64,000 nt of DNA from an uncultured Gammaproteobacteria bacterium (GCA_964488535.1 CAZAUT010000003.1:2232-66231); one strand, 5' to 3'; shown: positions 28,301 to 49,563, counted from the stretch's first letter. Program-made: numbers and translations. Notes: generated by a model from the sequence alone, not told the origin.

Positions 28301-28930
28301 TTAACTCTCCTTTACATATCCGGCAAAAATAATCGCATCGCCCCGCAGATGGTCAAACCCATTTCCCTTAATTGCGATCGAATCAAATTTTTTGATGTCG
28401 CCATACAAACTCGAGCCGCCATATCGTCCTCTATCAAACGGACCAATCTCTGACATCTGCAAATTTCTCGTTCCAATCAATTCAGCAATCTCCACAGACA
28501 TATGAAAATCATAATGAGAAATTTTCTCTCCAAGTTTTCGCATAATAAATGATTGTGTATGAAAAGCCAAAACATCTGAACCACATTCTCTTATATCGTT
28601 TTCTAAAAATGTCTTCGCAAATCCATTTCCCCGCACCGACTCTGACGTTATAATTCCTTCAAGGTGATATACACTCATATTTCGATAAAATCTCAAGCTT
28701 GTTGCTATAAACGCAACCGATTTACCGTTTTTATCTTGAGCTATCCTCAATCTATCACAATCAATCACATGGTCATAAACATCTTTATACAAAGCATCTG
28801 TAACGGTTCTCATAAAACCTTCTGCTGTTAATGGTGTAAGTGAAAGAGCCAAATTGTGTTTATGATTTTCGGATAAAGTTTCTTTTGGTCTTATAATTAC
28901 TTCGCCAAAGTACCCCCTGCCCTTCGACAT
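28301..28930 (-). CDS. putative GNAT-family acetyltransferase
   Basis: HLEGIITSESVRGNGFAKTFL resembles GNAT motif A. The call is weak. Confidence 0.35.
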   Translation of the reverse strand: MSKGRGYFGEVIIRPKETLSENHKHNLALSLTPLTAEGFMRTVTDALYKDVYDHVIDCDRLRIAQDKNGKSVAFIATSLRFYRNMSVYHLEGIITSESVRGNGFAKTFLENDIRECGSDVLAFHTQSFIMRKLGEKISHYDFHMSVEIAELIGTRNLQMSEIGPFDRGRYGGSSLYGDIKKFDSIAIKGNGFDHLRGDAIIFAGYVKES

Positions 28931-29154
28931 TGCTCAGGGTTAATAACCCATTTGCACTCTCAGAGCAAGAGGCTCCTTTCACAATGTTTGGTTCATATTC
29001 TTTTGACATATTTTTTTGTACACCAATAACGCAAAAAACCCTTGCAAAACCACCACAAAATGATGATCTTACAAGGGTTCTTCAATTAAAGCTTATTGCC
29101 GTTCCGCAGCTTTAGCGAAGGACGGTGCCACCTTGTTTTAATATCTTACCCCAA

Positions 29155-29181
29155 CCAATAAAAAAGTCGCCTATCGGCGAC
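29155..29181 (-). terminator. rho-independent terminator (GTCGCCGATAGGCGAC + U-run) on the minus strand
   Basis: A perfect 6-bp stem with a 4-nt loop, followed by TTTTTTATT on the minus strand. It lies ~240 nt downstream of tRNA-Met. Confidence 0.45.
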
Positions 29182-29455
29182 AAACAGTTCGAATAAGATA
29201 TCCTCATTATTCGGTACTCCGACTGTCTGCCGACATACCGTTGTGACGTGATGACGCTTCACTTGCGTGGTAGACTATCGCCTACCCGGCTCCGGGATCC
29301 CAACCAATCCCTTCACAGCCTTTTTTAAATTATGTTGGTATAGTACCAAAATTTCGAAATAATTGCAAACATACTGAAGTTGAAAAGAATTTTGACATGT
29401 CGATCTGCGATTGCCATAGCGATTTGAAAAATCGGTATGTCGCAAAAATTTGCTG

Positions 29456-29527
29456 TGCCAAGGGAGAGGATCGAACTCTCGACATCGCGCTTATGAAACG
29501 CGCGCTCTACCACTGAGCTACCTTGGC
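29456..29527 (-). tRNA. tRNA-Met (CAT anticodon; elongator Met or Ile2/lysidine type)
   Basis: The minus strand reads GCCAAGGTAGCTCAGTGGTAGAGCGCGCGTTTCATAAGCGCGATGTCGAGAGTTCGATCCTCTCCCTTGGCA. The cloverleaf is complete, with anticodon loop TTCATAA and no GGG/CCC initiator signature in the anticodon stem. Confidence 0.8.
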
Positions 29528-29540
29528 AATATTTTTTGCG

Positions 29541-29577
29541 CCATGAAACGATTGCTCTACCACTGAGCTACGTTGGC
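29541..29577 (-). pseudogene. truncated 5'-half copy of tRNA-Met, ending in the anticodon loop after CAT
   Basis: The minus strand reads GCCAACGTAGCTCAGTGGTAGAGCAATCGTTTCAT then GGCGC. It lies 12 nt upstream of the intact tRNA-Met. Confidence 0.5.
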
Positions 29578-29589
29578 AAAATTTGTCAT

Positions 29590-29700
29590 GAAACGACTAC
29601 CCTGCCATTACCTGCCCCGTAAAAGCGATACTTCGATGCGAGGATGTAAACCTCGAGAGAAGCGAGCTCTGTACGGGGAGCTACCCCGACATTCCCTATT
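29590..29700 (-). ncRNA. conserved noncoding element, copy E2, upstream of tRNA-Met
   Basis: cgatgcgaggatgtaaacctcgagagaagcgagctctgtacgggg shares blocks with E1 and E3. It contains the hairpin CGAGG-7nt-CCTCG. Confidence 0.3.
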
Positions 29701-29906
29701 TTACTAAAGCGTTGTATTAACTTCAATCTTGAAGTATAATTTACCCTGTTCTTTACCATAATTCCTAATTCATAATTCGTAATTCAGGAAAAATGTGCGG
29801 GGTAGTGTCCCGAAAAAATTTCGCTTTGCTCAATTCAACGGGACGAGCAGATGAAACTTCGCATACATTGGTAATTTTAATCGTATTTTAACAACTTAAT
29901 CATATG

Positions 29907-30227
29907 TGCGGGGTAGTGTACGGCTGCACGGAAGGCTCAAAATGGGCTTCCCGCTTAGCGGGATAAATTTGGCTATATCGGTGAAACCTAAGCTTTATAG
30001 AGTATGGCAACGCCGAGGAAAGACTACGTTCAAATTTTATGAAAGTAGAATCCGTAGAGACTATACGCCAAAGCACGTTCATATAAACTGAATGTACAAG
30101 ACATAGTCCGACACTCCCAAATACCTTTTGGTATTTGACAGTAAACTGTATAGTTCATTGCAAGAAATTGGAGATTACAGAATAAGCATAATCTTCCAGA
30201 TCAGGTTCAACTCCTGACCCCGCAACA
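29907..30227 (+). ncRNA. ssrA: tmRNA (SsrA)
   Basis: The 5' acceptor strand TGCGGGG pairs with the 3' CCCCGCA. The 3' T-arm CAGGTTCAACTCCTG is near-identical to the E. coli tmRNA T-arm GGGTTCAACTCCCGC. A candidate tag ORF at 30007-30042 (GCA ACG CCG AGG AAA GAC TAC GTT CAA ATT TTA TGA, giving ATPRKDYVQIL) aligns in position and codons with E. coli ANDENYALAA. Confidence 0.6.
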
Positions 30228-30241
30228 CATTTTTCAGAAAT

Positions 30242-30676
30242 TTAAAAACTGCTTTTCTGAAAAAAAATCTCTGCCCACTTCCTCCAATTTGGTACCGTGT
30301 TGTCCTCATTAATAATTTCATCCTTGGGCACAAGTTTAACCAAAATCTCATCCGGCGGTAAGATCAGAATCAGCTCATTTTCTTTTGTCATGTTCAGTTG
30401 ATTACGAAGCTGCTTTTCAATATAATCGTCACTTGTAATCTCTTCATATTTACTCTTTAATTGGGCTTCCCTGTCGCGAAGTTCAACCAGTTCTCTTTCT
30501 TTTATGTCCGCTTCCTCGTCAATATTTCTCAGTCTCTTGAAAGTACGCACGGAAGAACTTAAAAACATCACTAAAGAAACGAGAAAAGCGATGGATAAGA
30601 TCTTCTCTTTAACCGCAGACGAACGTTTTTCTGAATTATTTTTGATTAGACTATATTGTCTCATAATATTGACCAA
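30242..30676 (-). CDS. FtsB/DivIC-like septum formation initiator (TM + coiled coil)
   Basis: 144 aa with an N-terminal TM helix followed by a heptad-rich segment (ELVELRDREAQLKSKYEEI). Confidence 0.45.
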   Translation of the reverse strand: MVNIMRQYSLIKNNSEKRSSAVKEKILSIAFLVSLVMFLSSSVRTFKRLRNIDEEADIKERELVELRDREAQLKSKYEEITSDDYIEKQLRNQLNMTKENELILILPPDEILVKLVPKDEIINEDNTVPNWRKWAEIFFQKSSF

Positions 30677-30762
30677 GTGCCATACGACGTGATAATATAC
30701 TGTCCGATAGCTTATTTTTTAAGGGTTAGGTCTCCAAAATAAGTCTAAAGACATTATATAAT

Positions 30763-31626
30763 ATGACGCAGGTTGTTCTTAAAGACCTTTTGCCCAAATT
30801 CATACAACACCTCAAGGATAATAAAAGATCCCCATCGACAGTATTGGCGTACAAAGCAGACCTCGATCAGCTGGTTTCATTTCTCACAGAGAAAGGTAAA
30901 GTATTGACCGAAGATGTAGAAGCATCCGACATTGAAGGGTTCCGTGATACGCTGCTAGCCAACAAGTATACGCCGAAATCCGTTTCGAGAAAACTAAATG
31001 CCGTAAAAACGTTTTTCAGGTTTTTGACCGACAACAAAATATCTCCCAAAGATCCGTCGTCTTCAGTTTCTCACCCCAAAATCGAGTCAACTATGCCGAA
31101 ATTTTTATCTGCCATTGAATACAGAGCCTTGCGGGATGTGGTCCGAAACGACGCCAGGATAGCTGCAATAATTGAATTGATCTTAGAGGCCGGATTGAGA
31201 ATTTCTGAAGTAGCCGGACTTAAAAGGGAAAACTGCAAAAACCACATCCTTAAAATTGAGGCTTATGCAACTCAGGAAGCTCGGGAAATTCCTCTCAATG
31301 CATCGGCAAAGGCTGCCCTCGACAGGTATCTTAACGAGAGGCCGGATACCAAGTCTCCCTATGTATTCGTAAGTAAAAACGGAAAACCTCTTGCCATAAG
31401 AAATATCAGAGCAGCTATCGACAGATATTTCCAAAAAGCCGAAATTCCCGGATACACCGTAAACGATCTCCGCACTACTTTTGTCGTACAAAACTTAAAA
31501 GCCGGCGTGGATCTTATTCTTCTTTCCCGTGTTTCGGGCCCCAAAAGACTCTCAACGACGGAAAGATATCTTCAGCTTGCCCAAATCACCCAATCGGGCA
31601 AGAAACAGGAGTTGGTGGAGTTGTAA
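30763..31626 (+). CDS. tyrosine site-specific recombinase (XerC/XerD/integrase family), with divergent active-site residues
   Basis: Core-binding N-domain, ARG-I in GLRISEVAGL, DLRTTF in place of HxLRH, and C-terminal LSTTERY carrying the catalytic Tyr. Confidence 0.7.
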   Translation: MTQVVLKDLLPKFIQHLKDNKRSPSTVLAYKADLDQLVSFLTEKGKVLTEDVEASDIEGFRDTLLANKYTPKSVSRKLNAVKTFFRFLTDNKISPKDPSSSVSHPKIESTMPKFLSAIEYRALRDVVRNDARIAAIIELILEAGLRISEVAGLKRENCKNHILKIEAYATQEAREIPLNASAKAALDRYLNERPDTKSPYVFVSKNGKPLAIRNIRAAIDRYFQKAEIPGYTVNDLRTTFVVQNLKAGVDLILLSRVSGPKRLSTTERYLQLAQITQSGKKQELVEL

Positions 31627-31654
31627 ACCCAATAAATTAGCCCAATTAGTCAAA

Positions 31655-32203
31655 TTAGTCCAATTTGCCTAATTTGTAGTTACTTCTTTTTCTGTACAAA
31701 TTTTCACGAAATCCACCTTCCTTCACAAACTTTTCTTGTTTTGACTTCAGCAGTTTGTCCAAAAGATAACCCTGCTTGTAACACAAACAAATCATTAAAT
31801 TTGCAAAATTTTCGGGGTTGTTAAAATCCAATCCTGTCCAATCGGCTAAATCATCCAAAGTAGTTGGTTTACCAACGCTTTCTTTAAAACTCCGTATTCT
31901 TAACACCCGCGGGTCGTTTTTGTCCCATACCGGCAAATTCCTCATCCTTAAAAAATCCTCATAATCCTCCGAAAGTTCCGAATATGAACTTCTGCTGACA
32001 CTATTAAGCATAATGTCGCTGGCTATTGAAAGTTCTTTTGAACCTTCAACAATATTCTGCTTGCCGCTTCTTGCGGCTTGAATCATCTGCTCAACGGTTC
32101 TTTTGAATTTTGGGTGAGACAAAAATCTTTCACAAAAAATGTTTGTTAAATCGTAGATCGTAACTGAAGTTCGATAAACCAGAAGTTCTTTATATCCTCC
32201 CAT
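31655..32203 (-). CDS. four-helix-bundle protein with a C-terminal suffix domain
   Basis: LLVYRTS..IYDLT...QMIQAARSGKQNIVEGS plus a ~70-aa C-terminal extension. Confidence 0.6.
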   Translation of the reverse strand: MGGYKELLVYRTSVTIYDLTNIFCERFLSHPKFKRTVEQMIQAARSGKQNIVEGSKELSIASDIMLNSVSRSSYSELSEDYEDFLRMRNLPVWDKNDPRVLRIRSFKESVGKPTTLDDLADWTGLDFNNPENFANLMICLCYKQGYLLDKLLKSKQEKFVKEGGFRENLYRKRSNYKLGKLD

Positions 32204-32407
32204 TATCTCAAGTTAGCCCAATCGGACAAATTAGTCAAATTCAGATAATCAGCCAAATTAGACAAATTAGCCACACGCCAATAAACCGTTTTTTATTTTC
32301 AACATATTTGTGGCCCGGGATGGGTTCGACCAAGTCTGACTTGGGTTACTCTCCATCGACTTCCATTTTATGACAGATACTAATCTGACATGTCAGAAAT
32401 TGAGATT

Positions 32408-32446
32408 GTGGGCGTGCATGGGATCGAACCATGGACATCTACTTTA
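32408..32446 (-). pseudogene. 3' half of a split tRNA (AAAGTAG..GTCCATGGTTCGATCCCATGCACGCCCA)
   Basis: An anticodon-stem 3' strand, variable loop, T-arm and acceptor 3' strand CACGCCC that match the 5' half at 32569-32602. Confidence 0.45.
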
Positions 32447-32462
32447 TGGCAATAAATTTCCT

Positions 32463-32534
32463 GTGGGCTGAGATGGGTTCGAACCATCGACATCTACTTT
32501 ATAAGAGTAGCGCTCTACCACTGAGCTATCAGCC
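32463..32534 (-). tRNA. tRNA-Ile (TAT anticodon)
   Basis: The minus strand reads GGGCTGATAGCTCAGTGGTAGAGCGCTACTCTTATAAAGTAGATGTCGATGGTTCGAACCCATCTCAGCCCA. The cloverleaf is complete, with anticodon loop CTTATAA. Confidence 0.7.
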
Positions 32535-32568
32535 CTTAAATTTATTGACATGTCAAACTCCGTTTGCC

Positions 32569-32602
32569 ATAAGAGTAGCGCTCTACCGCTGAGCTACACG
32601 CC
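32569..32602 (-). pseudogene. 5' half of a split tRNA (GGGCGTGTAGCTCAGCGGTAGAGCGCTACTCTTAT)
   Basis: Acceptor 5' strand, D-arm, anticodon stem, and a loop ending at CTTAT. Its 3' partner lies 125 nt downstream on the minus strand, beyond the intact tRNA-Ile. Confidence 0.45.
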
Positions 32603-32614
32603 CTCAACTTCTGT

Positions 32615-32650
32615 CATAAGAAAGGCACTCTAACCACTGAGTTACCGAGC
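32615..32650 (-). pseudogene. additional truncated tRNA 5' half (GGCTCGGTAACTCAGTGGTTAGAGTGCCTTTCTTAT)
   Basis: A third 5' half that also ends at CTTAT. No matching 3' half was found. Confidence 0.4.
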
Positions 32651-32971
32651 CGTGAGGTTATTATATCAAGAGATGTGTAAAAACTTAACACGAGGTTGAA
32701 AATTTGTTGATAGTTACTTGGTTACTTTGACAAACGCGGTACGTGATACGAAATGCGAGATACGAAATACGTAAAACGAAAATGGTTAGTAGAAATCAGA
32801 AAATTGTAATGGATAATAGAGATTGGAAAATGGTACTCAAATTTCTATTTTCAATTTTCCATTACTAATTTCTACTTTCTCTCAACCAATTTCTGTTCCT
32901 GTTTATTGTTTTTCCTCCCAATATCCTAATATCCTAGTATCTTAATATCTTCATCTCTCAACAATTTGTAT

Positions 32972-33808
32972 TCACAAATTATTGTTCACCGCTCCCCTTA
33001 TCCCCTCCCAATCCTTAACTTTTCTTATTTTGAGGTTTTTATTCCATGCGGCCCGAAGTACGGAAAGGTCAACACCTAATTTTTTGGCGTGTCCCAAAAT
33101 GGCTACGGTATCCTTGGGGAAACATTTCAAACCAAAACCTCCAAACGGAGACGCCTTCAAAAATGCCTTACCTACTCTCGGATCGGCACCTACCATCTCT
33201 GCAATTTCGTTATAATTAACCCCCAATTTCTTTGCCAGTTCCGCCATTTCATTGGCAAAAATTATTTTGGTTGCCATAAAAGTATTACTCATATATTTCA
33301 CCATCTCAGCCGATGTCGGGTCGGTTATATAAACTTTCACTTTATAGCCCATTACGTCACGGTGAAGACGGGCAATTCTGTTGGCAACATCTTCGTTAAA
33401 GGCACCGATGACAATACGGTCCGGGTGTAAAAAATCCCATGGAGCATTGATTTCGGTTAAAAATTCCGGATTCATGGCAAAATCCACTTTCGGATATTTC
33501 TTTGCGTATTTGGCGGTTGTGCCCGGAATCACAGTTGATTTAACAATTACGGGAATGTTCTTTCCGGCCAGTAGAGGAGCTATCCCGTCAACAACCTTGT
33601 CCATTATGGAAAGATCGATACCTGTGTGATCCGCTTTCATCGGTGTGGGAAGACAAAGAAAAATAAAGTCGGACTTTTCGCAGAGTTCCCCGACCGGAGT
33701 CGATCCTTTATCGGTCTTATTGTTCCACAGAATTTTATGTTTCCTGCCAAAACCCGTTCCGGTAGCCTTGCCTACTATTCCCCAACCGATAATACCAAGC
33801 GTAGCCAT
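32972..33808 (-). CDS. UDP-glucose / nucleotide-sugar 6-dehydrogenase family protein (short form)
   Basis: N-terminal Rossmann fold GIIGWGIVG and catalytic GFGLKCFPKD. At 278 aa it appears to lack the usual C-terminal UDP-binding domain. Confidence 0.65.
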   Translation of the reverse strand: MATLGIIGWGIVGKATGTGFGRKHKILWNNKTDKGSTPVGELCEKSDFIFLCLPTPMKADHTGIDLSIMDKVVDGIAPLLAGKNIPVIVKSTVIPGTTAKYAKKYPKVDFAMNPEFLTEINAPWDFLHPDRIVIGAFNEDVANRIARLHRDVMGYKVKVYITDPTSAEMVKYMSNTFMATKIIFANEMAELAKKLGVNYNEIAEMVGADPRVGKAFLKASPFGGFGLKCFPKDTVAILGHAKKLGVDLSVLRAAWNKNLKIRKVKDWEGIRGAVNNNL

Positions 33809-33945
33809 GATGAGAAATTTACTACTTTATAAAAAAAATCGCAAGGGAGGAAAAATCTTCACAAATATATACCAATTTCAAATGTCCACCAATTCCCAAT
33901 AAGAAATTTGTATTTATTTGTATTTATTGGTACTTATTGGAAATT

Positions 33946-36270
33946 CTATAGTTTTGATCTTCTTGCAATCTCTGCTTCAACAAGCCGAATGTCGCGCCCA
34001 TAATTAAGTCTGCTCATTTCGCGTATGATTTCGGCCACCTTCGGATTTTCCATAGCCTTTATTTTCTCAACATCGCGGAAAAGATCCATTGAAAATGGCG
34101 GAACGGGTTCATTATTTACCGTAGTTTTGACATAGACGTGATATTTTTCAATGTTAAGAAGGTCGTCTTCGGCAAAAACGGGTGTAAATTCATGCTGAAG
34201 GTAACTCGCGTCCGTAGTTCCGATTCTAAAAGAAATTATCGTGCCGACGTTCCCGAAAACGGCGTTTTTAACCTCTTCCTCCACCTGTCCGATAAACTGA
34301 TTTGCAACACAAAGTGCCAGAGCATATTTTCTGGCTTCGGAGAGAATGACAGCAAAATCAGGGGTTGCAAAATTTTGGAACTCATCAACATAAAGATAAA
34401 ACGGACGTCTTTGCTCTTTAGGTACGTCTGTCCTGCTCATTGCTGCCATAAGAATTCTTGGAACCAAAATAAGCCCCAAAAAGCTGGAGTTCTCCTCCCC
34501 GATCGTACCTTTTGAGAGATTGATAAAGAGAATCTTTCCGTCATCCATAACCCGGCGGAGATCGAAAGATGACTGGGATTGGCCGATTATATTCCTCACC
34601 ATCTTGTTTGTAACAAATCTTCCGAATTTTGAAGTAATATAGTCCAAAACTTCAGATTTATGAAAATCGGACGTCTGTGCAATCTGGTCGGTCCAGTAAC
34701 GCCGGACAATCGGATCCTTCACTTTAGGCAGCAGTTCCTGCACATAGCGCGAGTCTGTCAAAACCCTCATTACCTCGATAAAAGTGTTGCCATCCTCGCT
34801 CATAACCGTCAGCATTGCATTTCTTACTGCATGTTCAAAACGAGGGCCCACAATACCGGTTTTATAGGGATCGAAAAGCTTATACATCATGTTTATGACG
34901 GAAGTGGATGCAAAGTGCTTCTGATCTTCCGTTTTGGCTTCAAGAAGGTTTAACCCCATCGGTCTTTCCGTGTCGGAAGGGTTGAAATAAATAACATCCT
35001 CGGCCCGTTCCGGCGGGATGAGATTTAAAAGTTCCTCTACCGCGTCTCCATGCGGATCGATAAAACACACTCCCTCGCCGTTTCGTATGTCCTGAATTAC
35101 AAGATCTTTTAATAGCTCCGACTTTCCGACACCGGTTTTTCCGACAATATACATATGCCTCATTCTGTCTTCATCGGTAATGTAAACCGGCCGTTTTGTT
35201 CCCTGGTATGAACTTAATCCCAAATACGTTCCCGTCTGAGGAATTCTGGCCGGGGCAGGTGCGGTTTTTGAATAAACCCAATGTATATGGGGTGTTGTAA
35301 TCGTTTTATTGGGAAAATGATATATCGACGCAAGTTCCTCGGAATTAAGTATTGTTTTTTTATTTCCCATGATATGAAACATTGGGTGGTAACGGTAAAT
35401 AAAGTCTTCAATAAAAGCGCCTTTTTGTCTTACCTTTCTCCCTTTAAGATAATTAAGATCTCCGTTAAATTGTGCAAATGCACTGCTGATATTCGACAGG
35501 TGGGATTTTGCCGTCTCTTTGTTGTTGGCAACAACAACAATCCTGATTGATGTGTCAAAACCAGATTTGGATATTTTGTTTTCCACCGCCTCAAGCGTTT
35601 TCGCGGGAACGGAAAACTTTGCTTTCTCCGGATCTGCCTCCTGTTTCTTCGTTGAAGAAATAAAGCCGGATCCGGCTTTACTCCAGTTATTTTCTGCGGG
35701 AGAAATGAGTATTTGAATTGCAGCTGACTCACCATCGCCCATCTTTGCCAATGCTGCAGTTATAACCGACATAGGATCGGTGGGCAATTCTTTATATGTT
35801 TTCATCGGAAAGTAGTTGTCCCTTGCCAGTTGAAATGCCTTATAGGCAACCTTTCCTTCCTCCGTAAAGATATTGTATTCCTGTACTTCGGTCACGTCTG
35901 CATCGGGATACGCTCCGTGAATCTGTTTTTCTATCATGTCCTGAAATTTTTTCGGTGTCCAAACGTAAAAACGGATATCTTCCTTTTTGGCAACAATCTC
36001 GAAAGAAATCGTTGGCTGTGTTTTATATTTTTGTTTCCAACCGCCTTCTTTTATTGAATAAAGCGCGGAAAACATCTGCTCCATCGCATCAATTTTTATC
36101 TCATTATTTTTATGAACTGCCACCTGCAGTAAAACCGAGTCTATCGATTCTTCTTCTCTGTTTCGATGTTTGATATTCGTAAAAATAAAAAAAACCGCAA
36201 CGGCAGCAAAGAAAATAAAAAGAGACAATATTGCTAAAAATATTAGGATTATATCTATTTCGCTATACAT
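33946..36270 (-). CDS. type IV coupling protein-like P-loop ATPase (VirD4/TraD/TraG family), membrane anchored
   Basis: N-terminal TM helix, Walker A IVGKTGVGKS, Walker B YLYVDEFQNF, then ARKYALALCVANQF..GNVGTIISFRIG, which parallels the TrwB RKFGLRVVAGLQ..FRSLVVLG region. Confidence 0.55.
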   Translation of the reverse strand: MYSEIDIILIFLAILSLFIFFAAVAVFFIFTNIKHRNREEESIDSVLLQVAVHKNNEIKIDAMEQMFSALYSIKEGGWKQKYKTQPTISFEIVAKKEDIRFYVWTPKKFQDMIEKQIHGAYPDADVTEVQEYNIFTEEGKVAYKAFQLARDNYFPMKTYKELPTDPMSVITAALAKMGDGESAAIQILISPAENNWSKAGSGFISSTKKQEADPEKAKFSVPAKTLEAVENKISKSGFDTSIRIVVVANNKETAKSHLSNISSAFAQFNGDLNYLKGRKVRQKGAFIEDFIYRYHPMFHIMGNKKTILNSEELASIYHFPNKTITTPHIHWVYSKTAPAPARIPQTGTYLGLSSYQGTKRPVYITDEDRMRHMYIVGKTGVGKSELLKDLVIQDIRNGEGVCFIDPHGDAVEELLNLIPPERAEDVIYFNPSDTERPMGLNLLEAKTEDQKHFASTSVINMMYKLFDPYKTGIVGPRFEHAVRNAMLTVMSEDGNTFIEVMRVLTDSRYVQELLPKVKDPIVRRYWTDQIAQTSDFHKSEVLDYITSKFGRFVTNKMVRNIIGQSQSSFDLRRVMDDGKILFINLSKGTIGEENSSFLGLILVPRILMAAMSRTDVPKEQRRPFYLYVDEFQNFATPDFAVILSEARKYALALCVANQFIGQVEEEVKNAVFGNVGTIISFRIGTTDASYLQHEFTPVFAEDDLLNIEKYHVYVKTTVNNEPVPPFSMDLFRDVEKIKAMENPKVAEIIREMSRLNYGRDIRLVEAEIARRSKL

Positions 36271-39767: not shown

Positions 39768-41927
39768 CTAAAGTTCGCATGTACTAAACCCGCACTTTTT
39801 GCATTTGAAGCATTTATTATCCCTGACCAGTAAAATATTACATGTGGGACATTTTCTCAATGAGGGAAGGGTTCTTTCCGACGACCCGAACTCAAAAACC
39901 TGGTTGTTTTTTGCCTTATCGCGGTAAACGGTAAGGCCTTTGCAACCCAGTTTCCAGGCCAAAATGTACGCCTGTTCGACATCGTCGGGTGTTGCGTGAG
40001 AAGGCATATTAATTGTTTTTGTTATCGCGTTGTCTGTCCACTTCTGAAAAGCAGCCTGCATTCTGATGTGATCGCGCCAGTCAATATCGTGTGCCACTTT
40101 AAAAACATTCCGAAGATGTTTCGGAATCTCGGTTATACCCTGCGCACTTCCATGATTCTGAACCACCTTTTGAATAAGACTGTCGCTGTAAACGCCGTAT
40201 TCTTTAAGCTTTCTCGTAAAAATGCCGACTGTGTTTTTTAACCGCATCCCGTCCAAGACGTTTTGTTCATATGCAAGTGCAAAAAAGGGTTCTATCCCGA
40301 AAGAAGTCTCACAAATGACTGCATTTCCGCTTGATGGCGGGAAAGTTAAGAGAGCTACATTTCTTGGCTTGTCCTTCCTTTCCGCCCAAATTGATTTATT
40401 AACAAGCGGAAATGCTCCCTTTTCTTTTGCCAAATGCACCGAAGCCTCAAAGCCCGACTGATACATCGTCTGCGTGACTTTTTCGGCTAGATTAAAGGCT
40501 TCGACACTGTCATAGGGTATTTCCATCATGGCAAGCGTTTCCGCCCAGCCGACACAGCCGATTCCGATCCTTCTGTGTTTTTTTACTGCCTCGGAAATTT
40601 CCTGTACCGGAAACCATGAAGCATCAATTACATTATCCATTAACCGCACCGCTGTCTTCATTGTCTTCTGCAATCCTTCAAAATCAAATCCGCCGTCCGG
40701 CGGACCATGTATCACAAATTTGGTAAAATTTATATATCCCAGATTACAGGACTCGTATGGATATAAAGGAACCTCTCCGCAGGGATTGGTCGTCATTAAA
40801 AGCCCCTGTTTTCCGAGAAGCGGATTGGATAGTGCCGTTCCTTTGTTTATTGCGGATAAATTAATAATTCCCGGATCTCCCGTTTGCCACGCCATTTGGG
40901 CCATTAGTTCAAGAATCGAATTTGCTTTAACTTTATTCACGACTTCACCCGTTCTTGGATTTATAAGGTCCCAGTTATCACCGTTTTGCGCTTTTTGCAT
41001 AAACTCATCGGTAACACCAACCGAAATGTTTGTTTTTGAAAGATAGCCGTCGTTTTGCTTCGAGGAAATAAAATTAAAAATATCGGGGTGGCTCGAATTC
41101 AATATTGCCATGTTTCCGCTTTCATATTTCCCCTCCTGTTTGAACAGGGATGTCATAAGATCAAACATTTCGATCAGTTTTACCGGCCCTGCAGCCAGGT
41201 TTGGAGCGCCCCCAACCGGATCTCCCTCGGGACGGATCATTGAGAAATTATAACCGCATCCCCCGCCGTGTTTTTTAATTAAAGTGGATTTGTGAAGAAT
41301 ATTGAAAATTGAATTAATATCATCCTCGATTGGCCAGACAAAACAATTAGCAAGCTGGGGAGATTTTTTTCCGGCATTGGCAAGCGTTCTTGTACCCGGA
41401 AGAAACTTGAAACTCATCATCAGATCAAGAAAGCGCTTGTTCCATAGACTTCTCTTTTCTTTTGTTTTTTCGACATCGGAAAGGCATTTTGCAACCCTTT
41501 CAAACATTTGCCGTGGTGTTTCCAAAATCTCCCCCTTCTCGTTTTTTTTAAGGTAACGTGACTTAAGAATGTATAAAGTATTGTAAGAAAGTCCAATATC
41601 GTCCTTCACCCCAAGCGATTCTTTATCCTGTCTCAAATGTTTTTTGTTCTCCCGGTATCTGATAAATTCTTTCGCTGTTTTTGCGTGACCGCGTTCAATA
41701 AGAACCTTTTCTACAATTTCGCCGATTTCCGAAGTTTTTATGTTTTCACCGACAGCGTACTTTTCCTTCAAAACAGTCAAAACCTCGTTCCTTAAGGAAA
41801 GTGCCGTCTTTTCGTCCTTTCCTCCGACATTCCGTGCTGCAAGAAAGATACTCCGGAAAATTTTCTCTCCGTCAAACGGCTCGTTTATTCCGCTCGCTTT
41901 GATAACGTATTTGGCTGGTTGCTTCAT
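39768..41927 (-). CDS. nrdJ: adenosylcobalamin-dependent (class II) ribonucleotide reductase with an N-terminal ATP-cone
   Basis: ATP-cone VIKASGINEPFDGEKIFRSI, NCFVWP, radical-site TTNPCGEVPL, and a C-terminal CxxC...CxxC zinc ribbon. Confidence 0.85.
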   Translation of the reverse strand: MKQPAKYVIKASGINEPFDGEKIFRSIFLAARNVGGKDEKTALSLRNEVLTVLKEKYAVGENIKTSEIGEIVEKVLIERGHAKTAKEFIRYRENKKHLRQDKESLGVKDDIGLSYNTLYILKSRYLKKNEKGEILETPRQMFERVAKCLSDVEKTKEKRSLWNKRFLDLMMSFKFLPGTRTLANAGKKSPQLANCFVWPIEDDINSIFNILHKSTLIKKHGGGCGYNFSMIRPEGDPVGGAPNLAAGPVKLIEMFDLMTSLFKQEGKYESGNMAILNSSHPDIFNFISSKQNDGYLSKTNISVGVTDEFMQKAQNGDNWDLINPRTGEVVNKVKANSILELMAQMAWQTGDPGIINLSAINKGTALSNPLLGKQGLLMTTNPCGEVPLYPYESCNLGYINFTKFVIHGPPDGGFDFEGLQKTMKTAVRLMDNVIDASWFPVQEISEAVKKHRRIGIGCVGWAETLAMMEIPYDSVEAFNLAEKVTQTMYQSGFEASVHLAKEKGAFPLVNKSIWAERKDKPRNVALLTFPPSSGNAVICETSFGIEPFFALAYEQNVLDGMRLKNTVGIFTRKLKEYGVYSDSLIQKVVQNHGSAQGITEIPKHLRNVFKVAHDIDWRDHIRMQAAFQKWTDNAITKTINMPSHATPDDVEQAYILAWKLGCKGLTVYRDKAKNNQVFEFGSSERTLPSLRKCPTCNILLVRDNKCFKCKKCGFSTCEL

Positions 41928-41936
41928 GTTGATAAT

Positions 41937-44243
41937 TTAAAGCCTGCACTTACTCCACCCGCATTCTTTGCAACTTCTACATCCTCCCTCAAATTCCAAA
42001 ACTCCTTTGCACTCCGGGCAGTTTTTTTCTTCTTTCTCCAATTCGGGCTTATACTTTTCACCGGTATTTATTACTTGATCCTCCTTGCTGCCATCTCTGT
42101 AAACCGTAATGCCCTTACATCCGAGTTTCCATGCCAGCATGTACGATTTCTCAACCTCCTCAACCGTCGCCGTGTTTCTGAAGTTTATGGTTTTTGACAC
42201 AGCATTATCGGCATATTTCTGAAACGCTGCCTGTATTCTTACATGCCACTGGGGATCAATGTCGTGTGTTGTAACAAAAACTTTTCTGATGTCACCGGGA
42301 AGTCCGGGTACATTTTGAATTGAACCGTGATTTTTGATAATTTTTTCGATCAACGTATCACTAAACAGATTTTTTTCTTTTAATATTTCCTCAAAAACCG
42401 GATTAATATAATAAAGTTTTCTGGTAGATCTATTCTTGTGATCCTCGTTATAGAAAGAACTCCTTGTATAAACAAGGGCAAAACTTGGCTCGACACCGCT
42501 TGTTGTATCTCCAATCATCGATACTGTACCTGTTGGAGCAATAGTAATCATCGTACAATTACGATATTTCTCTGCGGATCCTTTGTAGGTCGATATGTCC
42601 CAATTGGGAAATACACCGCGAGTTTTGGCTAATTCAAGCGAAGCTTCTTCGGCTTTGCGTTTAACAAATTTTGCAATCTTATCCGCAATCCGTACACCGT
42701 CGGGGCTGTTATAGGCAATATTCAATTTAAAAAGTGTTTCCGCAAAACCTACCATTCCCAAACCTATTTTCCTGTTTCCGTACTTTACGATTTTTTCGGT
42801 TTCGGGTAAAACATAGTAGTTTGTTTCAATCATATTGTCCAAAAAACGGACAAGTGTTTTAACCGTATCTCCCAACTCTTCCCAGTTAATTTCCCATCCG
42901 CCATTCTTCCTGATTAAATGGTTTGCTAAATGAACGGAAGAAAGGTTGCATGACTCGTAAGGTAACAAAGGTTGTTCACCACATGGATTCGTTGCATTTA
43001 ACACTCCAAGGCTTGGAGTGAAGTTATCCTCTTCCATCCGGTCTAAAAAGACCATCCCGGGATCGCCGGTTTTCCACGCATGTTCACAAATTTCATGAAA
43101 AAGTTTTCGGGCAGAAACTTTCTTCACCGCCACTCCATCCCGTGGATTCACCAGAGAAAACTTCTTATCAGCCACGACCGCTTCCATAAACTCATTTGTC
43201 GCACCGACAGAAATGTTAAAATTCTTCATATTTCCGTCTTCGTCCTTGATTTTAATGAACTCAAAAATGTCAGGGTGGTTAACATTTAAAATACCCATAT
43301 TTCCACCGTGTTTTTTGGATCCCTGCATAATTTTTGACAAGGCTGCACTGTAAACCTGCAAAAAGTCCACAGGCCCTGAAGCGGTATTTGGAACATTTCT
43401 TACCTTGTCACCCTTGAAACGTATATCACTGAAGTTAAATCCTGTTCCTCCAAAGTTTTTTTGAATGAGAGCTGCCTCGCCAAGTGTCTGGAAAATTTTA
43501 GAAATAGAATCTTCAATTTTCAAGACGAAGCATGGGGAAAGTTGCTGCAAACAATGGTCATTACCGGCTTCATACATAGCACTGGTAGTGCATATAAATT
43601 TAAACTTAACCATTTTATTAAAAAATACCTGTGCTGCCAATTCGACATCTTTTTCGTTACCCCAATTAATTTCTGTTTTGGCGATATATTTCGCAACTCT
43701 CCAGAAAATCTGTCCCGGAGTCTCTTCCGGCTTTCCGTCAGCACCCAACTTGGAACATCTGGCAACAAGGGTTGTCCTGGCATTGCCGGTCATTTCCGGT
43801 TCGCGGATGATAAATTCGTCTTTTTTTGACTGTTCCTTCCTTTCTTTGTATAAAATATAATATCTGGCCGTTTCGAAATAACCTTTCTGTGCAATGACAG
43901 GTTCAACAATGTTCCGGATTTCTAATGTGGAAATGACTGGTTTCTTAAAAATTAAAAGCTTGGATAGGACTTCTTTTAATATGGCGTTTGAGTCCTCTTT
44001 GGAATAGGACATCGTATCCTTGCCGGCTAAGATAATACTTTTTACTATTTTATTCCAAATGAATAATTGTGTCTGTCCGTCCGATTTTATTACTTTTTTT
44101 ATTTTTAATTTGGGTAAATTTGCTTTTATGTAATCTTTGTCTTTTTTCATATCAACACTCCGAATAACCGCATCCGTGACACGTCTTGCAGCCCATTTCG
44201 TGAACCAAAGTTGCGTTTCCGCAAGACGGACAAAAATCGGCAT
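41937..44243 (-). CDS. nrdJ: class II ribonucleotide reductase paralogue 2, with ATP-cone
   Basis: ATP-cone VIKSDGQTQLF, ATNPCGEQPL, and a C-terminal CPECK..CRSCKECG. The start is probably the Met at ~44153. Confidence 0.85.
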   Translation of the reverse strand: MPIFVRLAETQLWFTKWAARRVTDAVIRSVDMKKDKDYIKANLPKLKIKKVIKSDGQTQLFIWNKIVKSIILAGKDTMSYSKEDSNAILKEVLSKLLIFKKPVISTLEIRNIVEPVIAQKGYFETARYYILYKERKEQSKKDEFIIREPEMTGNARTTLVARCSKLGADGKPEETPGQIFWRVAKYIAKTEINWGNEKDVELAAQVFFNKMVKFKFICTTSAMYEAGNDHCLQQLSPCFVLKIEDSISKIFQTLGEAALIQKNFGGTGFNFSDIRFKGDKVRNVPNTASGPVDFLQVYSAALSKIMQGSKKHGGNMGILNVNHPDIFEFIKIKDEDGNMKNFNISVGATNEFMEAVVADKKFSLVNPRDGVAVKKVSARKLFHEICEHAWKTGDPGMVFLDRMEEDNFTPSLGVLNATNPCGEQPLLPYESCNLSSVHLANHLIRKNGGWEINWEELGDTVKTLVRFLDNMIETNYYVLPETEKIVKYGNRKIGLGMVGFAETLFKLNIAYNSPDGVRIADKIAKFVKRKAEEASLELAKTRGVFPNWDISTYKGSAEKYRNCTMITIAPTGTVSMIGDTTSGVEPSFALVYTRSSFYNEDHKNRSTRKLYYINPVFEEILKEKNLFSDTLIEKIIKNHGSIQNVPGLPGDIRKVFVTTHDIDPQWHVRIQAAFQKYADNAVSKTINFRNTATVEEVEKSYMLAWKLGCKGITVYRDGSKEDQVINTGEKYKPELEKEEKNCPECKGVLEFEGGCRSCKECGWSKCRL

Positions 44244-49026: not shown

Positions 49027-49563
49027 TTAAGCTTTCTCCATTTCGCATTCTTCAAACGCCATGTCTATTGTTTCTATTATTAAATTTACCCTATCTTTGG
49101 CTTCGGTTAAAGTGACGGCGTTCTTCTCGTTGGGAAACCAGTGGAACAAAAGATTTCTGCATTCTTTCCAACACATCCAAAGCTTATTTGCAAGATCCTC
49201 TCCGTTACAAAGTTCTTTGATTCTGTCGTATACGCCTTCTTTTTCCCGCAGCTCCTTCTCCAGCGAAGGATTAAGGGCCTTACCGATCCTGAAATGTTTT
49301 CCGTAATAATCGTTTTCGGAAATAAAACCGAGGTCAAGAAATAATTTTTTCAAAAATCCCTCGTAGCCTTTTGCAGCCGGGAAAACGATAAATGAGTAGT
49401 CGTGAAACCCCTCTTTTTGCACAACCCCCCTCCCAAATGTTTCTGAAAAATTTGTTTCCCATTTTTGTGCTGTTTCAACCAAAAGAAGAGATTGCATTAA
49501 CAGCTCTTTTATGTCGGAATGAACATAACTCCACCAGACCCTTTTCTCCAATTCCTCAACCAT
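49027..49563 (-). CDS. hypothetical protein with a possible HEPN-like Rx4H motif
   Basis: 178 aa, fully alpha-helical by eye, with KECRNLLFHWF (Rx4H). There is no other recognisable family. Confidence 0.3.
   Translation of the reverse strand: MVEELEKRVWWSYVHSDIKELLMQSLLLVETAQKWETNFSETFGRGVVQKEGFHDYSFIVFPAAKGYEGFLKKLFLDLGFISENDYYGKHFRIGKALNPSLEKELREKEGVYDRIKELCNGEDLANKLWMCWKECRNLLFHWFPNEKNAVTLTEAKDRVNLIIETIDMAFEECEMEKA

What the first reader, a model, noticed from the sequence alone, without database searches (positions are those of the whole stretch)
29541..29577. Recurrent truncated 5' copies of tRNA-like genes immediately upstream of the intact genes (tRNA-Met, tmRNA, tRNA-Ile)
The same architecture appears three times within 3 kb. 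A 37-nt 5' half of tRNA-Met, ending right after the CAT anticodon, lies 12 nt upstream of tRNA-Met. A 16-nt exact copy of the tmRNA 5' end (ATGTGCGGGGTAGTGT at 29790) lies 112 nt upstream of ssrA. The tRNA-Ile cluster carries its own 5' halves. The truncation points are consistent, at anticodon-loop position 36/37, which suggests one anticodon-loop-specific recombination mechanism. The unusual tyrosine recombinase at 30763 is a candidate for that mechanism.
Basis: partly seen in the sequence, partly recalled or inferred. Interest (0 to 1): 0.55.

Follow-up and report, generated by a model that had tools for sequence, protein, structure and literature searches.

The report
Nested tRNA genes from serial insertions
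In this Woesebacteria (CPR) genome, new tRNA-Met and tRNA-Ile genes were repeatedly inserted into the anticodon loop of the resident copy, leaving nested half-gene relics, while the supposed tmRNA is an ordinary intron-containing tRNA.

Summary

- **No tmRNA.** The "tmRNA" is a tRNA(CAU) gene split by a group I intron at position 33/34, a known site for tRNA-fMet. Its 16-nt upstream copy stops in the D-stem.
- **Nested genes.** The tRNA-Ile(UAU) cluster reads 5'C-5'B-[intact A]-3'B-3'C. Joining the B halves gives a perfect tRNA-Ile. The Met cluster has two 5' relics, and its 3' partner survives in relatives.
- **One breakpoint.** Across about 23 related Woesebacteria loci, every relic breaks at anticodon position 35|36. 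Inserts are 100-120 bp with no ORF. They hold one same-isoacceptor, co-oriented tRNA between short inverted repeats (TGNCA...TGNCA), often next to about 20-nt hairpins.
- **Polymorphic.** Each locus has one intact gene. Relics are present, one-sided or absent depending on the genome.
- **Recombinase.** The neighbouring gene is a core Xer-like gene, present with or without relics.

Best reading: serial, site-specific "disrupt and replace" insertion of tRNA cassettes, followed by decay. The enzyme is unknown. I found no prior description.

The parts
32652..32670 (-). Promoter-like extended -10 (CTTGATATAATAACCTCAC) directly upstream of the outermost Ile 5' relic
   Evidence: The sequence is conserved upstream of the outermost copy in L002, L003, L008, L009, L010 and L027. 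Coordinates.
32617..32651 (-). Ile-C 5' relic: positions 1-35 of the oldest resident tRNA-Ile(UAU), ending CTTA
   Evidence: It pairs with the 3' relic at 32311-32370 through the acceptor stem GGCUCGG/CCGGGCC.
32604..32616 (-). Left inverted-repeat flank of the B-level insert (TGACAGAAGTTGA)
   Evidence: Matches the right flank at 32391-32408 at 12 of 14 positions. The junction repeats TTATGACAGA/TCTGTCATAA are 10/10 complementary (I2). L019 has the same flank next to the same tRNA, which is still intact there.
32570..32603 (-). Ile-B 5' relic (positions 1-35)
   Evidence: Joined to 32409-32446 it gives a perfect tRNA-Ile(TAT) in ARAGORN.
32551..32569 (-). Solo hairpin unit TGGCAAAC-GGA-GTTTGACA
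   Evidence: It is 85% identical to a unit in the Met cluster at 29392-29418 (D8).
32536..32550 (-). Left inverted repeat of the A unit (TGTCAATAAATTTAA)
   Evidence: 14 nt, 93% complementary to 32446-32459 (I12, 62 I1).
32464..32535 (-). Intact tRNA-Ile(UAU), the innermost and only functional copy
   Evidence: ARAGORN; Rfam tRNA 75.6 bits.
32447..32463 (-). Right inverted repeat of the A unit (CAGGAAATTTATTGCCA)
32409..32446 (-). Ile-B 3' relic (position 36 to the discriminator base), starting TAAAG
32391..32408 (-). Right inverted-repeat flank of the B-level insert (CAATCTCAATTTCTGACA)
32371..32390 (-). Solo hairpin unit TGTCAGAT-TAGT-ATCTGTCA
32311..32370 (-). Ile-C 3' relic, carrying a 23-nt T-loop insertion (AGAGTAACCCAAGTCAGACTTGG at 32330-32352)
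   Evidence: ARAGORN calls tRNA-Ile only after the T-loop insert is removed. The same insert family occurs in L001, L009, L010, L012 and L018.
29698..29726 (-). Promoter-like site (TTGAAG-17-TAAAAT) upstream of the outermost Met relic
   Evidence: The region is conserved upstream of the intact resident gene in L011 and of the relic in L010.
29589..29690 (-). Met-C 5' relic, interrupted after D-stem position 13 by a 69-nt hairpin insertion (29609-29677) and ending TTCA
   Evidence: The same D-loop element family sits in an Ile relic in L009 and a Met relic in L010 (92% over 51 nt).
29578..29588 (-). Left flank of the B-level Met insert (TGACAAATTTT)
29544..29577 (-).
   Evidence: An intact gene with the same acceptor stem (GCCAACG) is the functional tRNA-Met in the closest relative, L006, so L006 shows the empty site.
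29528..29543 (-). Left inverted repeat of the Met-A unit (TGGCGCAAAAAATATT)
   Evidence: 12 nt, 92% complementary to 29437-29448 (I2).
29456..29527 (-). Intact tRNA-Met(CAU), elongator type
   Evidence: ARAGORN; Rfam 69.7 bits.
29438..29455 (-). Right inverted repeat of the Met-A unit (CAGCAAATTTTTGCGACA)
29382..29437 (-). Three consecutive small hairpin units (U2 29417-29437, U3 29398-29416, truncated U4 29382-29397); the Met-B 3' relic that follows them in relatives is deleted here
   Evidence: The alignment with L003, L010 and L021 shows the same units followed by ...GCCA|TAAGCGAC...CGTTGGCA. Four of the nine U2 pairs change on both sides, and the third pair never pairs.
29793..29808 (+). 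5' relic of the tRNA-fMet-type gene (ATG plus positions 1-13), followed by a 95-nt insert
   Evidence: Exact 16-mer repeat (D11). An 11-nt second copy of the tRNA 5' end (CGGGGTAGTGT), about 110 nt from the first, is also present in L006.
29907..29937 (+). 5' exon of tRNA(CAU), positions 1-33
   Evidence: The intron-less orthologue is L003 5374-5444.
29938..30186 (+). Group I intron (249 nt, no ORF), with U at -1 and a terminal G
   Evidence: Rfam RF00028 at 29891-30132, 51.9 bits against a gathering score of 50. Relatives score 69.6-75 bits. The terminal G is conserved.
30187..30225 (+). 3' exon of tRNA(CAU)
   Evidence: The spliced sequence is called tRNA-Met(CAT) by ARAGORN.
30763..31626 (+). 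Xer-like tyrosine recombinase; a neighbour, with no evidence that it belongs to the mechanism

Best explanation
The two clusters are graveyards of serial gene replacement at the DNA level.

**Proposed sequence of events**
1. A short DNA segment of about 100-120 bp, with no ORF, carries one complete tRNA gene. It is bounded by 10-14 bp imperfect inverted repeats with ends 5'-TGNCA...TGNCA-3'.
2. It inserts exactly between anticodon positions 35 and 36 (YA|TAA) of the resident tRNA gene of the same isoacceptor.
3. The insertion destroys the resident gene. Only insertions that bring a co-oriented, functional cognate tRNA, read from the resident promoter, can survive.
4. The cargo recreates the same target site, so the event can repeat. 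This gives the nested order 5'C-5'B-[A]-3'B-3'C.
5. The split outer halves are dead relics and decay in two ways. Homologous deletion between a relic half and the matching half of the inner gene leaves one-sided arrays. Small hairpin elements also accumulate in the D-loop, the T-loop and at the junctions.
6. New alleles must come from other Woesebacteria, because each genome keeps only one intact copy.

**Shown:** the nested anatomy, the invariant breakpoint, the inverted-repeat flanks, the presence/absence polymorphism, and one intact gene per locus.

**Inferred:** the direction and order of the events, the selection filter, the horizontal origin of the alleles, and deletion by recombination.

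**Unknown:** the enzyme. The junctions fit three options. One is a blunt A|T cut with TG...CA ends. Another is a 2-bp AT duplication or crossover, as made by a DDE transposase or a serine recombinase. The third is insertion 3' of a tetranucleotide on single-stranded DNA.

The 'tmRNA' is unrelated in kind. It is a tRNA-fMet-type gene with a group I intron at 33/34.
For: **Anatomy in the window**
- Joining 32603-32570 to 32446-32409 gives a perfect tRNA-Ile(TAT). The C halves give a tRNA-Ile once a 23-nt T-loop insert is removed.
- The RNA fold of the whole cluster is the nested structure, z = -4.5.
- Inverted repeats sit exactly at the insert ends: 14 nt at 93%, 10 nt at 100%, 9 nt at 100%, and 12 nt at 92% for Met.

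**Breakpoint across relatives**
- All 12 non-redundant 5' relics end at YA(35). They are followed by TG in 10 cases, TA in 1 and CC in 1.
- About 15 non-redundant 3' relics start at TAA(36-38), or at A37 in 2 cases. They are preceded by CA in most cases, otherwise TA, TG or other.

**Pattern across about 23 distinct syntenic loci**
- Each of the 21 loci that hold an intact tRNA-Ile(TAT) holds exactly one (L011/L012 and L013 contigs end before it; L023 holds no tRNA).
- All relics share the strand and the isoacceptor of the intact gene.
- Relics are on both sides in the window, L003, L009, L014, L019, L020 and L029. They are 3'-only in L001, L010 and L018, and 5'-only in L008 and L027. They are absent in L002, L004, L005, L015, L016, L022 and L024.

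**The same cassette in different roles**
- The GGGCGTG tRNA with flank TGACAGAA(G/A)TTGA is intact and innermost in L019, but is the split 'B' in the window.
- The TGGAAGAAAATTT-typeII cassette lies inside different outer alleles: GGGCGTG in L003 and GGGTGCG in L027.

**Empty sites**
- L006 has an intact GCCAACG tRNA-Met.
- L011 has an intact GCCAGGG tRNA-Met behind the same promoter region that precedes relics in L010 and the window.

**Other reconstructions:** L003 Ile-B and L020 Met-B are called as tRNAs.

**Decay**
- The flanks lose complementarity in L014 and L027, so they are not needed for the inner tRNA.
- The window has lost the Met 3' relic that L003 and L010 keep.
Against: - No enzyme was found. 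None of about 45 window ORFs matches a transposase, homing endonuclease or serine recombinase in Pfam.
- The TG.C...G.CA hairpin units are not dispersed through the 64-kb window as a MITE or REP family would be.
- No copy of a cassette was seen outside a tRNA gene, and none in viral contigs.
- The small hairpins keep perfect stems through changes on both sides in orthologous positions, with an always-mismatched third pair. That hints at a selected structure or a templated process that this model does not explain.
- Ile-B is undamaged, so an RNA-level role cannot be excluded from sequence alone.
- All related sequences are metagenome assemblies.
Confidence: 0.7

Rival explanations
1. Stumps of larger integrative elements. 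A phage, plasmid or ICE integrated into the anticodon loop without rebuilding the host tRNA, and carried its own cognate tRNA ('tRNA-dependent lysogeny'). Genome streamlining then deleted everything except the now-essential tRNA and the recombinase-binding arms, which are inverted repeats in attP.
For: - The disrupt-and-complement principle has been shown experimentally for mycobacteriophages (PMC10865867).
- Inverted-repeat arms around a 2-bp shared core would fit the attP half-sites of a large serine recombinase.
- One relic (L013) does contain a 164-aa ORF inside it.
- A VirD4-like coupling-protein gene lies next to the Ile cluster in the window.
Against: - At least 15 independent inserts are all trimmed to 0-4 nt beyond the tRNA on both sides. 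No intermediate-sized stump was seen and no integrase remnant.
- Repeated, equally precise deletions are unlikely.
- No matching tRNA was found in IMG/VR contigs.
Confidence: 0.15
2. The adjacent tyrosine recombinase (30763-31626) catalyses anticodon-loop-specific recombination that generates truncated 5' copies upstream of tRNA-Met, tmRNA and tRNA-Ile.
For: - The recombinase gene lies between the two clusters in every relative.
- Anticodon stem-loops are classic attB sites for tyrosine integrases (Williams 2002, cited in PMC9897764).
Against: - It is a core Xer-family gene: 4145 homologues, nearly all of the 120 listed being 287 aa.
- The same synteny holds in loci with no relics.
- The junctions share only AT, not a 6-8 bp overlap.
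- There is no tmRNA.
- The fMet fragment ends in the D-arm.
- 3' halves exist, so the products are not 5' truncations.
Confidence: 0.07
3. A functional RNA-level architecture. The outer halves are exons of tRNAs whose 'introns' contain other tRNAs. The inverted repeats form a closing helix that allows excision and ligation, in the manner of archaeal disrupted tRNA genes.
For: - Ile-B would be a perfect tRNA after removal of the insert.
- The flanks and the anticodon stem form one long helix.
- Relic insertions sit in the D-, anticodon- and T-loops while the stems stay intact.
- The hairpin stems covary.
Against: - Many loci keep only the 5' halves or only the 3' halves, or keep halves whose acceptor stems do not match, as in L001, L009, L010 and L027.
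- There is no bulge-helix-bulge motif. The helix is continuous apart from one bulged base.
- An intact redundant copy is always present.
- Flank complementarity decays in L014 and L027.
- Ile-C and Met-C are visibly degenerate.
Confidence: 0.05
4. Local tandem duplication and slippage followed by random deletions, or chimeric metagenome assembly of strain variants.
For: - tRNA genes are short repeats prone to misassembly.
- All relatives are MAGs or metagenome contigs.
Against: - The inner and outer genes are different alleles, and no genome has two intact copies that could have duplicated.
- The 5' end point and the 3' start point coincide to the nucleotide in about 27 relics.
- L030, a contig from a different metagenome, matches L001 across the intact tRNA-Ile and its downstream 3' relic. 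L003 and L017 carry identical fragment maps on contigs of different length.
Confidence: 0.03

Closest known systems
tRNA-dependent lysogeny of actinobacteriophages (Guerrero-Bustamante & Hatfull 2024, PMC10865867)
   Same: Integration into an essential host tRNA gene does not rebuild it. [quoted passage not shown]
   Different: - There, the element is a whole phage with its own tyrosine integrase and a common core of about 10 bp.
- Here, the insert is only about 100-120 bp, has no gene except the tRNA, and shares 0-2 bp with the target.
- Here, the event has recurred to give nested genes.
attL/attR tRNA-gene fragments left by integrative elements (Reiter 1989 and Williams 2002, as cited in PMC9897764)
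   Same: The sublocation is specific to the symmetric anticodon stem-loop, and partial tRNA genes are left beside an intact one.
   Different: - Classical integration duplicates the 3' part as a direct repeat tens of bp long, and the repeats are kilobases apart.
- Here, complementary 5' and 3' halves flank a complete foreign allele at 11-36 nt distance, with no direct repeat beyond AT.
Group I introns in Patescibacteria tRNA genes (Nakagawa et al. 2026, PMC13011429)
   Same: - The phylum is the same, and the anticodon loop is the insertion hot spot.
- That paper reports 35/36 as the Patescibacteria-enriched intron site and 33/34 as the usual site in tRNA-fMet.
- The window's third tRNA is an ordinary member of the 33/34 class.
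   Different: - The Met and Ile inserts are not introns. They have no ribozyme core (no Rfam hit) and no U(-1)/terminal-G rule.
- They preserve function by carrying a replacement gene rather than by splicing.
Archaeal disrupted tRNA genes (split, tri-split and multi-intron tRNAs; PMC4390854, PMC4090602)
   Same: tRNA genes are interrupted at the anticodon loop and at non-canonical D- and T-loop positions.
   Different: - Those are expressed and repaired at the RNA level through bulge-helix-bulge motifs.
- Here there is no such motif, the halves are often unpaired, and a complete redundant gene is always present.
Small palindromic mobile DNA: MITEs, REP/REPIN elements and their Y1 transposases (PMC3116915, PMC3733652, PMC3184786)
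   Same: They are non-coding, 20-120 bp in size, have terminal inverted repeats or hairpins, can insert into one another, and have conserved short end motifs.
   Different: - Those are dispersed in many intergenic copies and carry no cargo.
- Here, the units are confined to tRNA genes in the sampled DNA, and the larger ones carry a functional tRNA gene.

Membership tests
tmRNA (ssrA) | Detected by a tmRNA covariance or heuristic model: tRNA-Ala-like acceptor/T-arm domain plus a tag-peptide reading frame | tested here: not met
   ARAGORN reports no tmRNA in the window. There is no RF00023 hit at the gathering score, nor at E<=10 in 28900-33000.
Group I intron in a bacterial tRNA gene (33/34, tRNA-fMet class) | Catalytic core matches Rfam RF00028 at or above the gathering score | tested here: met
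   51.9 bits against a gathering score of 50 in the window. Orthologues in L001, L002, L004 and L005 score 69.6-75 bits.
Group I intron in a bacterial tRNA gene (33/34, tRNA-fMet class) | U precedes the 5' splice site, the intron ends in G, and the joined exons form a valid tRNA | tested here: met
   The exons are ...GGCU| and G|CAUAA.... The spliced sequence is called tRNA-Met(CAT). An intron-less orthologue with the identical exon join exists in L003.
Group I intron in a bacterial tRNA gene (33/34, tRNA-fMet class) | Self-splicing activity | not testable with these tools
   Needs in vitro transcription and splicing.
Integrative element at a tRNA gene (tyrosine-integrase att relics) | A direct repeat of the tRNA 3' segment (common core of at least 7-10 bp) flanks an element that encodes an integrase | tested here: not met
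   The junctions share only AT. The inserts are 100-120 bp with no ORF. The flanking pieces are complementary halves, not direct repeats.
tRNA-dependent lysogeny | [quoted passage not shown] | tested here: met
   The outer genes are split at 35|36. The inner gene always has the same anticodon and strand.
tRNA-dependent lysogeny | The incoming DNA is a temperate phage with its own integrase | tested here: not met
   There are no phage genes in or next to the inserts. There is no viral-contig match.
MITE | Terminal inverted repeats on a short non-coding element | tested here: met
   Inverted repeats of 9-14 bp at 92-100% lie at the insert ends. By eye, the ends share the motif TG(A/G)(C/A)A.AAA.TTT across units.
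MITE | Target-site duplication | tested here: inconclusive
   The junctions read equally well as no duplication with TG...CA ends or as a 2-bp AT duplication with G...C ends.
MITE | Many dispersed copies, and a parent IS with the same ends | tested here: not met
   Units of this type occur only at the tRNA loci in the 64-kb window. No transposase was found in the window. Whole genomes could not be searched.
Archaeal-type split or intron-containing tRNA | A bulge-helix-bulge motif at the exon-intron boundaries, with both exons retained | tested here: not met
   The helix is continuous with one bulged base. One-sided or mismatched halves occur in L001, L009, L010, L018 and L027.
Xer-type chromosome-dimer recombinase (for the gene at 30763-31626) | Full-length match to the tyrosine-recombinase catalytic and N-terminal SAM-like domains, conserved as a core gene | tested here: met
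   PF00589 and PF02899 both match. The best NCBIfam hits are XerC, XerA and XerD, below the equivalog cut-offs. There are 4145 homologues and conserved synteny.
Xer-type chromosome-dimer recombinase (for the gene at 30763-31626) | A dif site and dimer-resolution activity | not tested
   The conserved motif upstream of the gene looks like a promoter, and no dif-like palindrome was recognised.

The most novel reading that the evidence does not exclude
Woesebacteria, and perhaps other CPR bacteria, host a previously undescribed class of selfish cassettes. These are miniature, ORF-less, inverted-repeat-bounded tRNA genes that home into position 35|36 of the cognate chromosomal tRNA gene. They kill that gene and make themselves essential. 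Because the cargo regenerates the target, the process is recursive and produces nested tRNA genes. Companion mini-hairpin elements would be specific for the D-loop (13|14) and the T-loop (53|54). All would be mobilised in trans by an enzyme, still unidentified, that recognises hairpin or palindrome centres.
Probability: 0.4. Interest if true: 0.8.

Novelty: new variant of a known kind. Interest (0 to 1): 0.68.

Why it matters
- **A third way into an essential tRNA gene.** Elements are known to rebuild the gene from an att copy, or to splice out as an intron. Bringing a complete spare gene in a 100-bp package would be a third solution.
- **tRNA allele turnover.** It would explain how tRNA alleles are exchanged between lineages with tiny genomes that hold a single copy of each tRNA gene.
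- **A datable record.** The nested relics record successive horizontal transfers in order.
- **Annotation.** Half-tRNAs, and tRNAs hidden by introns, are missed or mis-called by standard tools. Here an intron-containing tRNA was read as a tmRNA.
- **A possible tool.** The invariant 35|36 breakpoint points to an unknown nuclease or recombinase specific for hairpin centres, which could be useful.

Tried and rejected
- **tmRNA.** Rejected by ARAGORN and Rfam.
- **Genome-wide hairpin family.** The count of TR..YA hairpins in the window (57) is only slightly above block-shuffled controls (26-54, mean about 41). The one extra TGACATGTCA site, at 62871, lies inside a coding ORF.
- **Phage origin.** Two exact 27-mer scans of IMG/VR gave nothing.
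- **Mobilising enzyme in the window.** Pfam scans of about 45 ORFs found none.
- **The ORF inside an L013 relic.** It has no informative family match.
- **A dif site next to xer.** The alignment of upstream regions shows only a promoter-like motif.
- **Excess conservation of the outermost Ile 3' relic.** Among L009, L010 and L012 it is no more conserved (0.90-0.91) than the adjacent coding DNA (0.85-0.92). I therefore dropped the idea that the relic is under selection.
- **Exact-protein look-ups.** Look-ups of the window's Xer and DivIC proteins found no contig.
- **Literature.** Six searches found no description of nested bacterial tRNA genes.
- **Not possible.** I could not test other tRNA species, other CPR lineages, or the existence of full-length elements.

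Full report
**What is at the coordinates**

ARAGORN and Rfam find only two intact tRNAs in the 64-kb window, both on the minus strand. They are tRNA-Met(CAU) at 29455/6-29527 and tRNA-Ile(UAU) at 32463/4-32535.

It lies 16 nt upstream of the intact gene. It is not a copy of that gene. Only 31 of 35 positions match, and the differences fall in the acceptor and anticodon stems, so it is another allele.

Further upstream is an older 5' relic (29690->29589). It also ends TTCA|TG, and its D-loop is interrupted by a 69-nt hairpin insertion.

**The 'tmRNA' is a tRNA with a group I intron**

No tmRNA model matches. Rfam RF00028 hits 29891-30132 at 51.9 bits, against a gathering score of 50.

The flanking exons are 29907-29937 and 30187-30225. 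Joined, they give a tRNA(CAU) that ARAGORN accepts. L003 carries the same gene without the intron. The intron follows U33 and ends in a conserved G. This is the 33/34 site that Nakagawa et al. list as usual for tRNA-fMet (PMC13011429).

The exact 16-mer at 29793-29808 and 29904-29919 is real, and L006 has an 11-nt second copy of the same tRNA 5' end. It covers three leader bases plus positions 1-13, so it stops in the D-stem, not the anticodon loop.

A 17-bp inverted repeat (29781-29797 and 30226-30242) links the leader of this relic to the trailer of the intact gene (I6). This suggests the present gene is a chimera. It would be left after an insertion in the D-arm region, followed by deletion between the repeated 3' parts.

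**The Ile cluster is nested**

On the minus strand the order is:
- promoter-like TGATATAAT box
- 5'C (32651-32617)
- 5'B (32603-32570)
- intact A
- 3'B (32446-32409)
- 3'C (32370-32311)

Joining the B halves gives a flawless tRNA-Ile(UAU). Joining the C halves gives a tRNA-Ile(UAU) once a 23-nt T-loop insertion is removed, with one anticodon-stem mismatch. The predicted fold of the whole cluster is the nested structure.

Each insert is bounded by inverted repeats that abut the breakpoints:
- TTATGACAGA / TCTGTCATAA, 10 of 10
- TTATGGCAA / TTGCCATAA, 9 of 9
- a 14-nt repeat at 93% around A
- a 12-nt repeat at 92% around tRNA-Met A

Hairpin units of about 20 nt with the same TGNC...GNCA ends lie between them. 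One unit family occurs in both clusters at 85% identity (D8).

**Relatives**

The neighbouring recombinase was used to collect 5 genome loci and 25 metagenome loci, all Candidatus Woesebacteria or Patescibacteria, at 60-88% amino-acid identity over the matched segment. The gene order tRNA-Met, tRNA(CAU) with or without intron, xer, tRNA-Ile(UAU) is conserved.

A fragment map and sequence views show the following.
- Each of the 21 loci that hold an intact tRNA-Ile(UAU) holds exactly one.
- All relics lie on the strand of the intact gene and carry its anticodon.
- Relics are on both sides, 3'-only, 5'-only or absent, depending on the genome.
- Every relic breaks at 35|36.

The same cassette appears in different roles. 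The GGGCGTG tRNA with flank TGACAGAA(G/A)TTGA is the live gene in L019 and the split 'B' in the window. The cassette TGGAAGAAAATTT-typeII lies within different outer alleles in L003 and L027.

Empty sites exist too. L006, the closest relative, has an intact GCCAACG tRNA-Met. L011 has an intact GCCAGGG tRNA-Met behind the promoter region that precedes relics in L010 and the window.

The window has lost the Met 3' relic that L003 and L010 retain after the same three hairpins. L003 Ile-B and L020 Met-B also reconstruct into tRNAs.

**Interpretation**

The simplest account is recurrent insertion of a small tRNA-bearing DNA segment at YA|TAA of the cognate gene. Selection would allow only insertions that replace the function they destroy. 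That explains three features: the same isoacceptor, the co-orientation behind the resident promoter, and the single intact copy. The cargo restores the target, so nesting can repeat.

One-sided arrays follow from deletion between a relic half and the homologous half of the inner gene.

Flank complementarity decays in L014 and L027. The flanks therefore look like insertion signatures rather than RNA processing stems.

The enzyme is unknown. No candidate lies in the window. The junctions are compatible with several chemistries.

**The recombinase**

The recombinase at 30763-31626 is a full-length Xer-family protein with thousands of same-length homologues. It is present in the same place in relic-free loci. 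The 0-2 bp shared between the junctions is unlike the overlap region of a tyrosine recombinase. It remains an untested candidate, but a weak one.

**Unexplained**

- Two more insertion families occur only in relics. One is a hairpin of about 66 nt after D-stem position 13. It is found in both Met and Ile relics, at 92% identity over 51 nt between L009 and L010. The other is an A(G/A)AGTAAC-plus-hairpin insert after T-stem position 53.
- The orthologous small hairpin U2 keeps a perfect stem through two-sided changes in 4 of 9 pairs, with a third pair that never pairs. This points to selection on the structure, or to repeated re-creation of palindromes.

**Prior knowledge**

Six literature searches found no description of nested bacterial tRNA genes. 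They did find group I introns in Patescibacteria tRNAs (PMC13011429), att-derived tRNA fragments (PMC9897764) and tRNA-dependent lysogeny (PMC10865867). The last is the closest functional analogue.

**Verdict**

The intron-containing tRNA is ordinary. The nested Met and Ile genes are an unusual and apparently undescribed variant of tRNA-gene-targeted insertion.

Noticed in passing
window 29938-30186; L001-L028: The group I intron in the tRNA-fMet-type gene is polymorphic. It is present in the window, L001, L002, L004, L005, L006, L011 and L013. It is absent in L003, L010, L014-L016, L018-L021 and L024. The gene also lies in either orientation relative to its neighbours, so this small gene has been inverted or re-inserted several times.
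   Followed up: partly
window 29609-29677 (-); L009 2748-2813; L010 597-662; L014 6946-7010: A rod-like hairpin element of about 66 nt (CCCG(C/T)A...TTTTACGGGG) is inserted after D-stem position 13 of relic tRNA genes. It occurs in both Met and Ile relics, so it appears to be mobile and D-loop-specific. It has no Rfam match.
   Followed up: partly
window 32330-32352 (-); L001 3297-3329; L009 2389-2411; L010 3384-3406; L018 2880-2904: An insertion family in the T-loop (after position 53) of relic 3' halves: A(G/A)AGTAA(C/T)C followed by a variable hairpin. Other relics carry unrelated T-loop inserts of 28-70 nt.
   Followed up: partly
window 31626-31683 and 32193-32286: Arrays of 9-bp tandem repeats (AATTAGNCN, 3 overlapping 40-nt repeat-family copies on one side and 6 on the other) flank both sides of the 182-aa ORF at 31655-32203. 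That ORF has only a weak match to the 23S rRNA intervening-sequence protein family (E = 0.0014). The arrangement resembles iterons or a small inserted module.
   Followed up: no
window about 29166-29310 (-): A GC-rich, structured stretch of about 150 nt downstream of the Met cluster ends in a clean intrinsic-terminator-like hairpin (GTCGCCGATAGGCGAC followed by a T-rich tail). It contains no long ORF and has no Rfam family. It may be an unannotated small RNA.
   Followed up: no
window 32700-36270: In relatives, a conserved gene ends just before the tRNA-Ile promoter. In the window it is replaced by an AT-rich repeat region, a truncated UDP-glucose dehydrogenase (32972-33808) and a VirD4/TraG-like coupling ATPase (33946-36270). 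This may be an island next to the tRNA locus.
   Followed up: no
L013 937-1431 (-): A 164-aa ORF of unknown family sits inside a tRNA-Met 3' relic, between the anticodon part and the T-arm part. This shows that relics can also take up larger inserts.
   Followed up: partly
window 39768-46662: Two ribonucleotide reductase large-subunit genes (39768-41927 and 44152-46662) are separated by about 2.2 kb with almost no long ORF.
   Followed up: no
window 6038-7870 and 49027-49563: An ATP-dependent DNA ligase of the archaeal/eukaryotic three-domain type, and a small HEPN RNase LS-like toxin domain protein.
   Followed up: no
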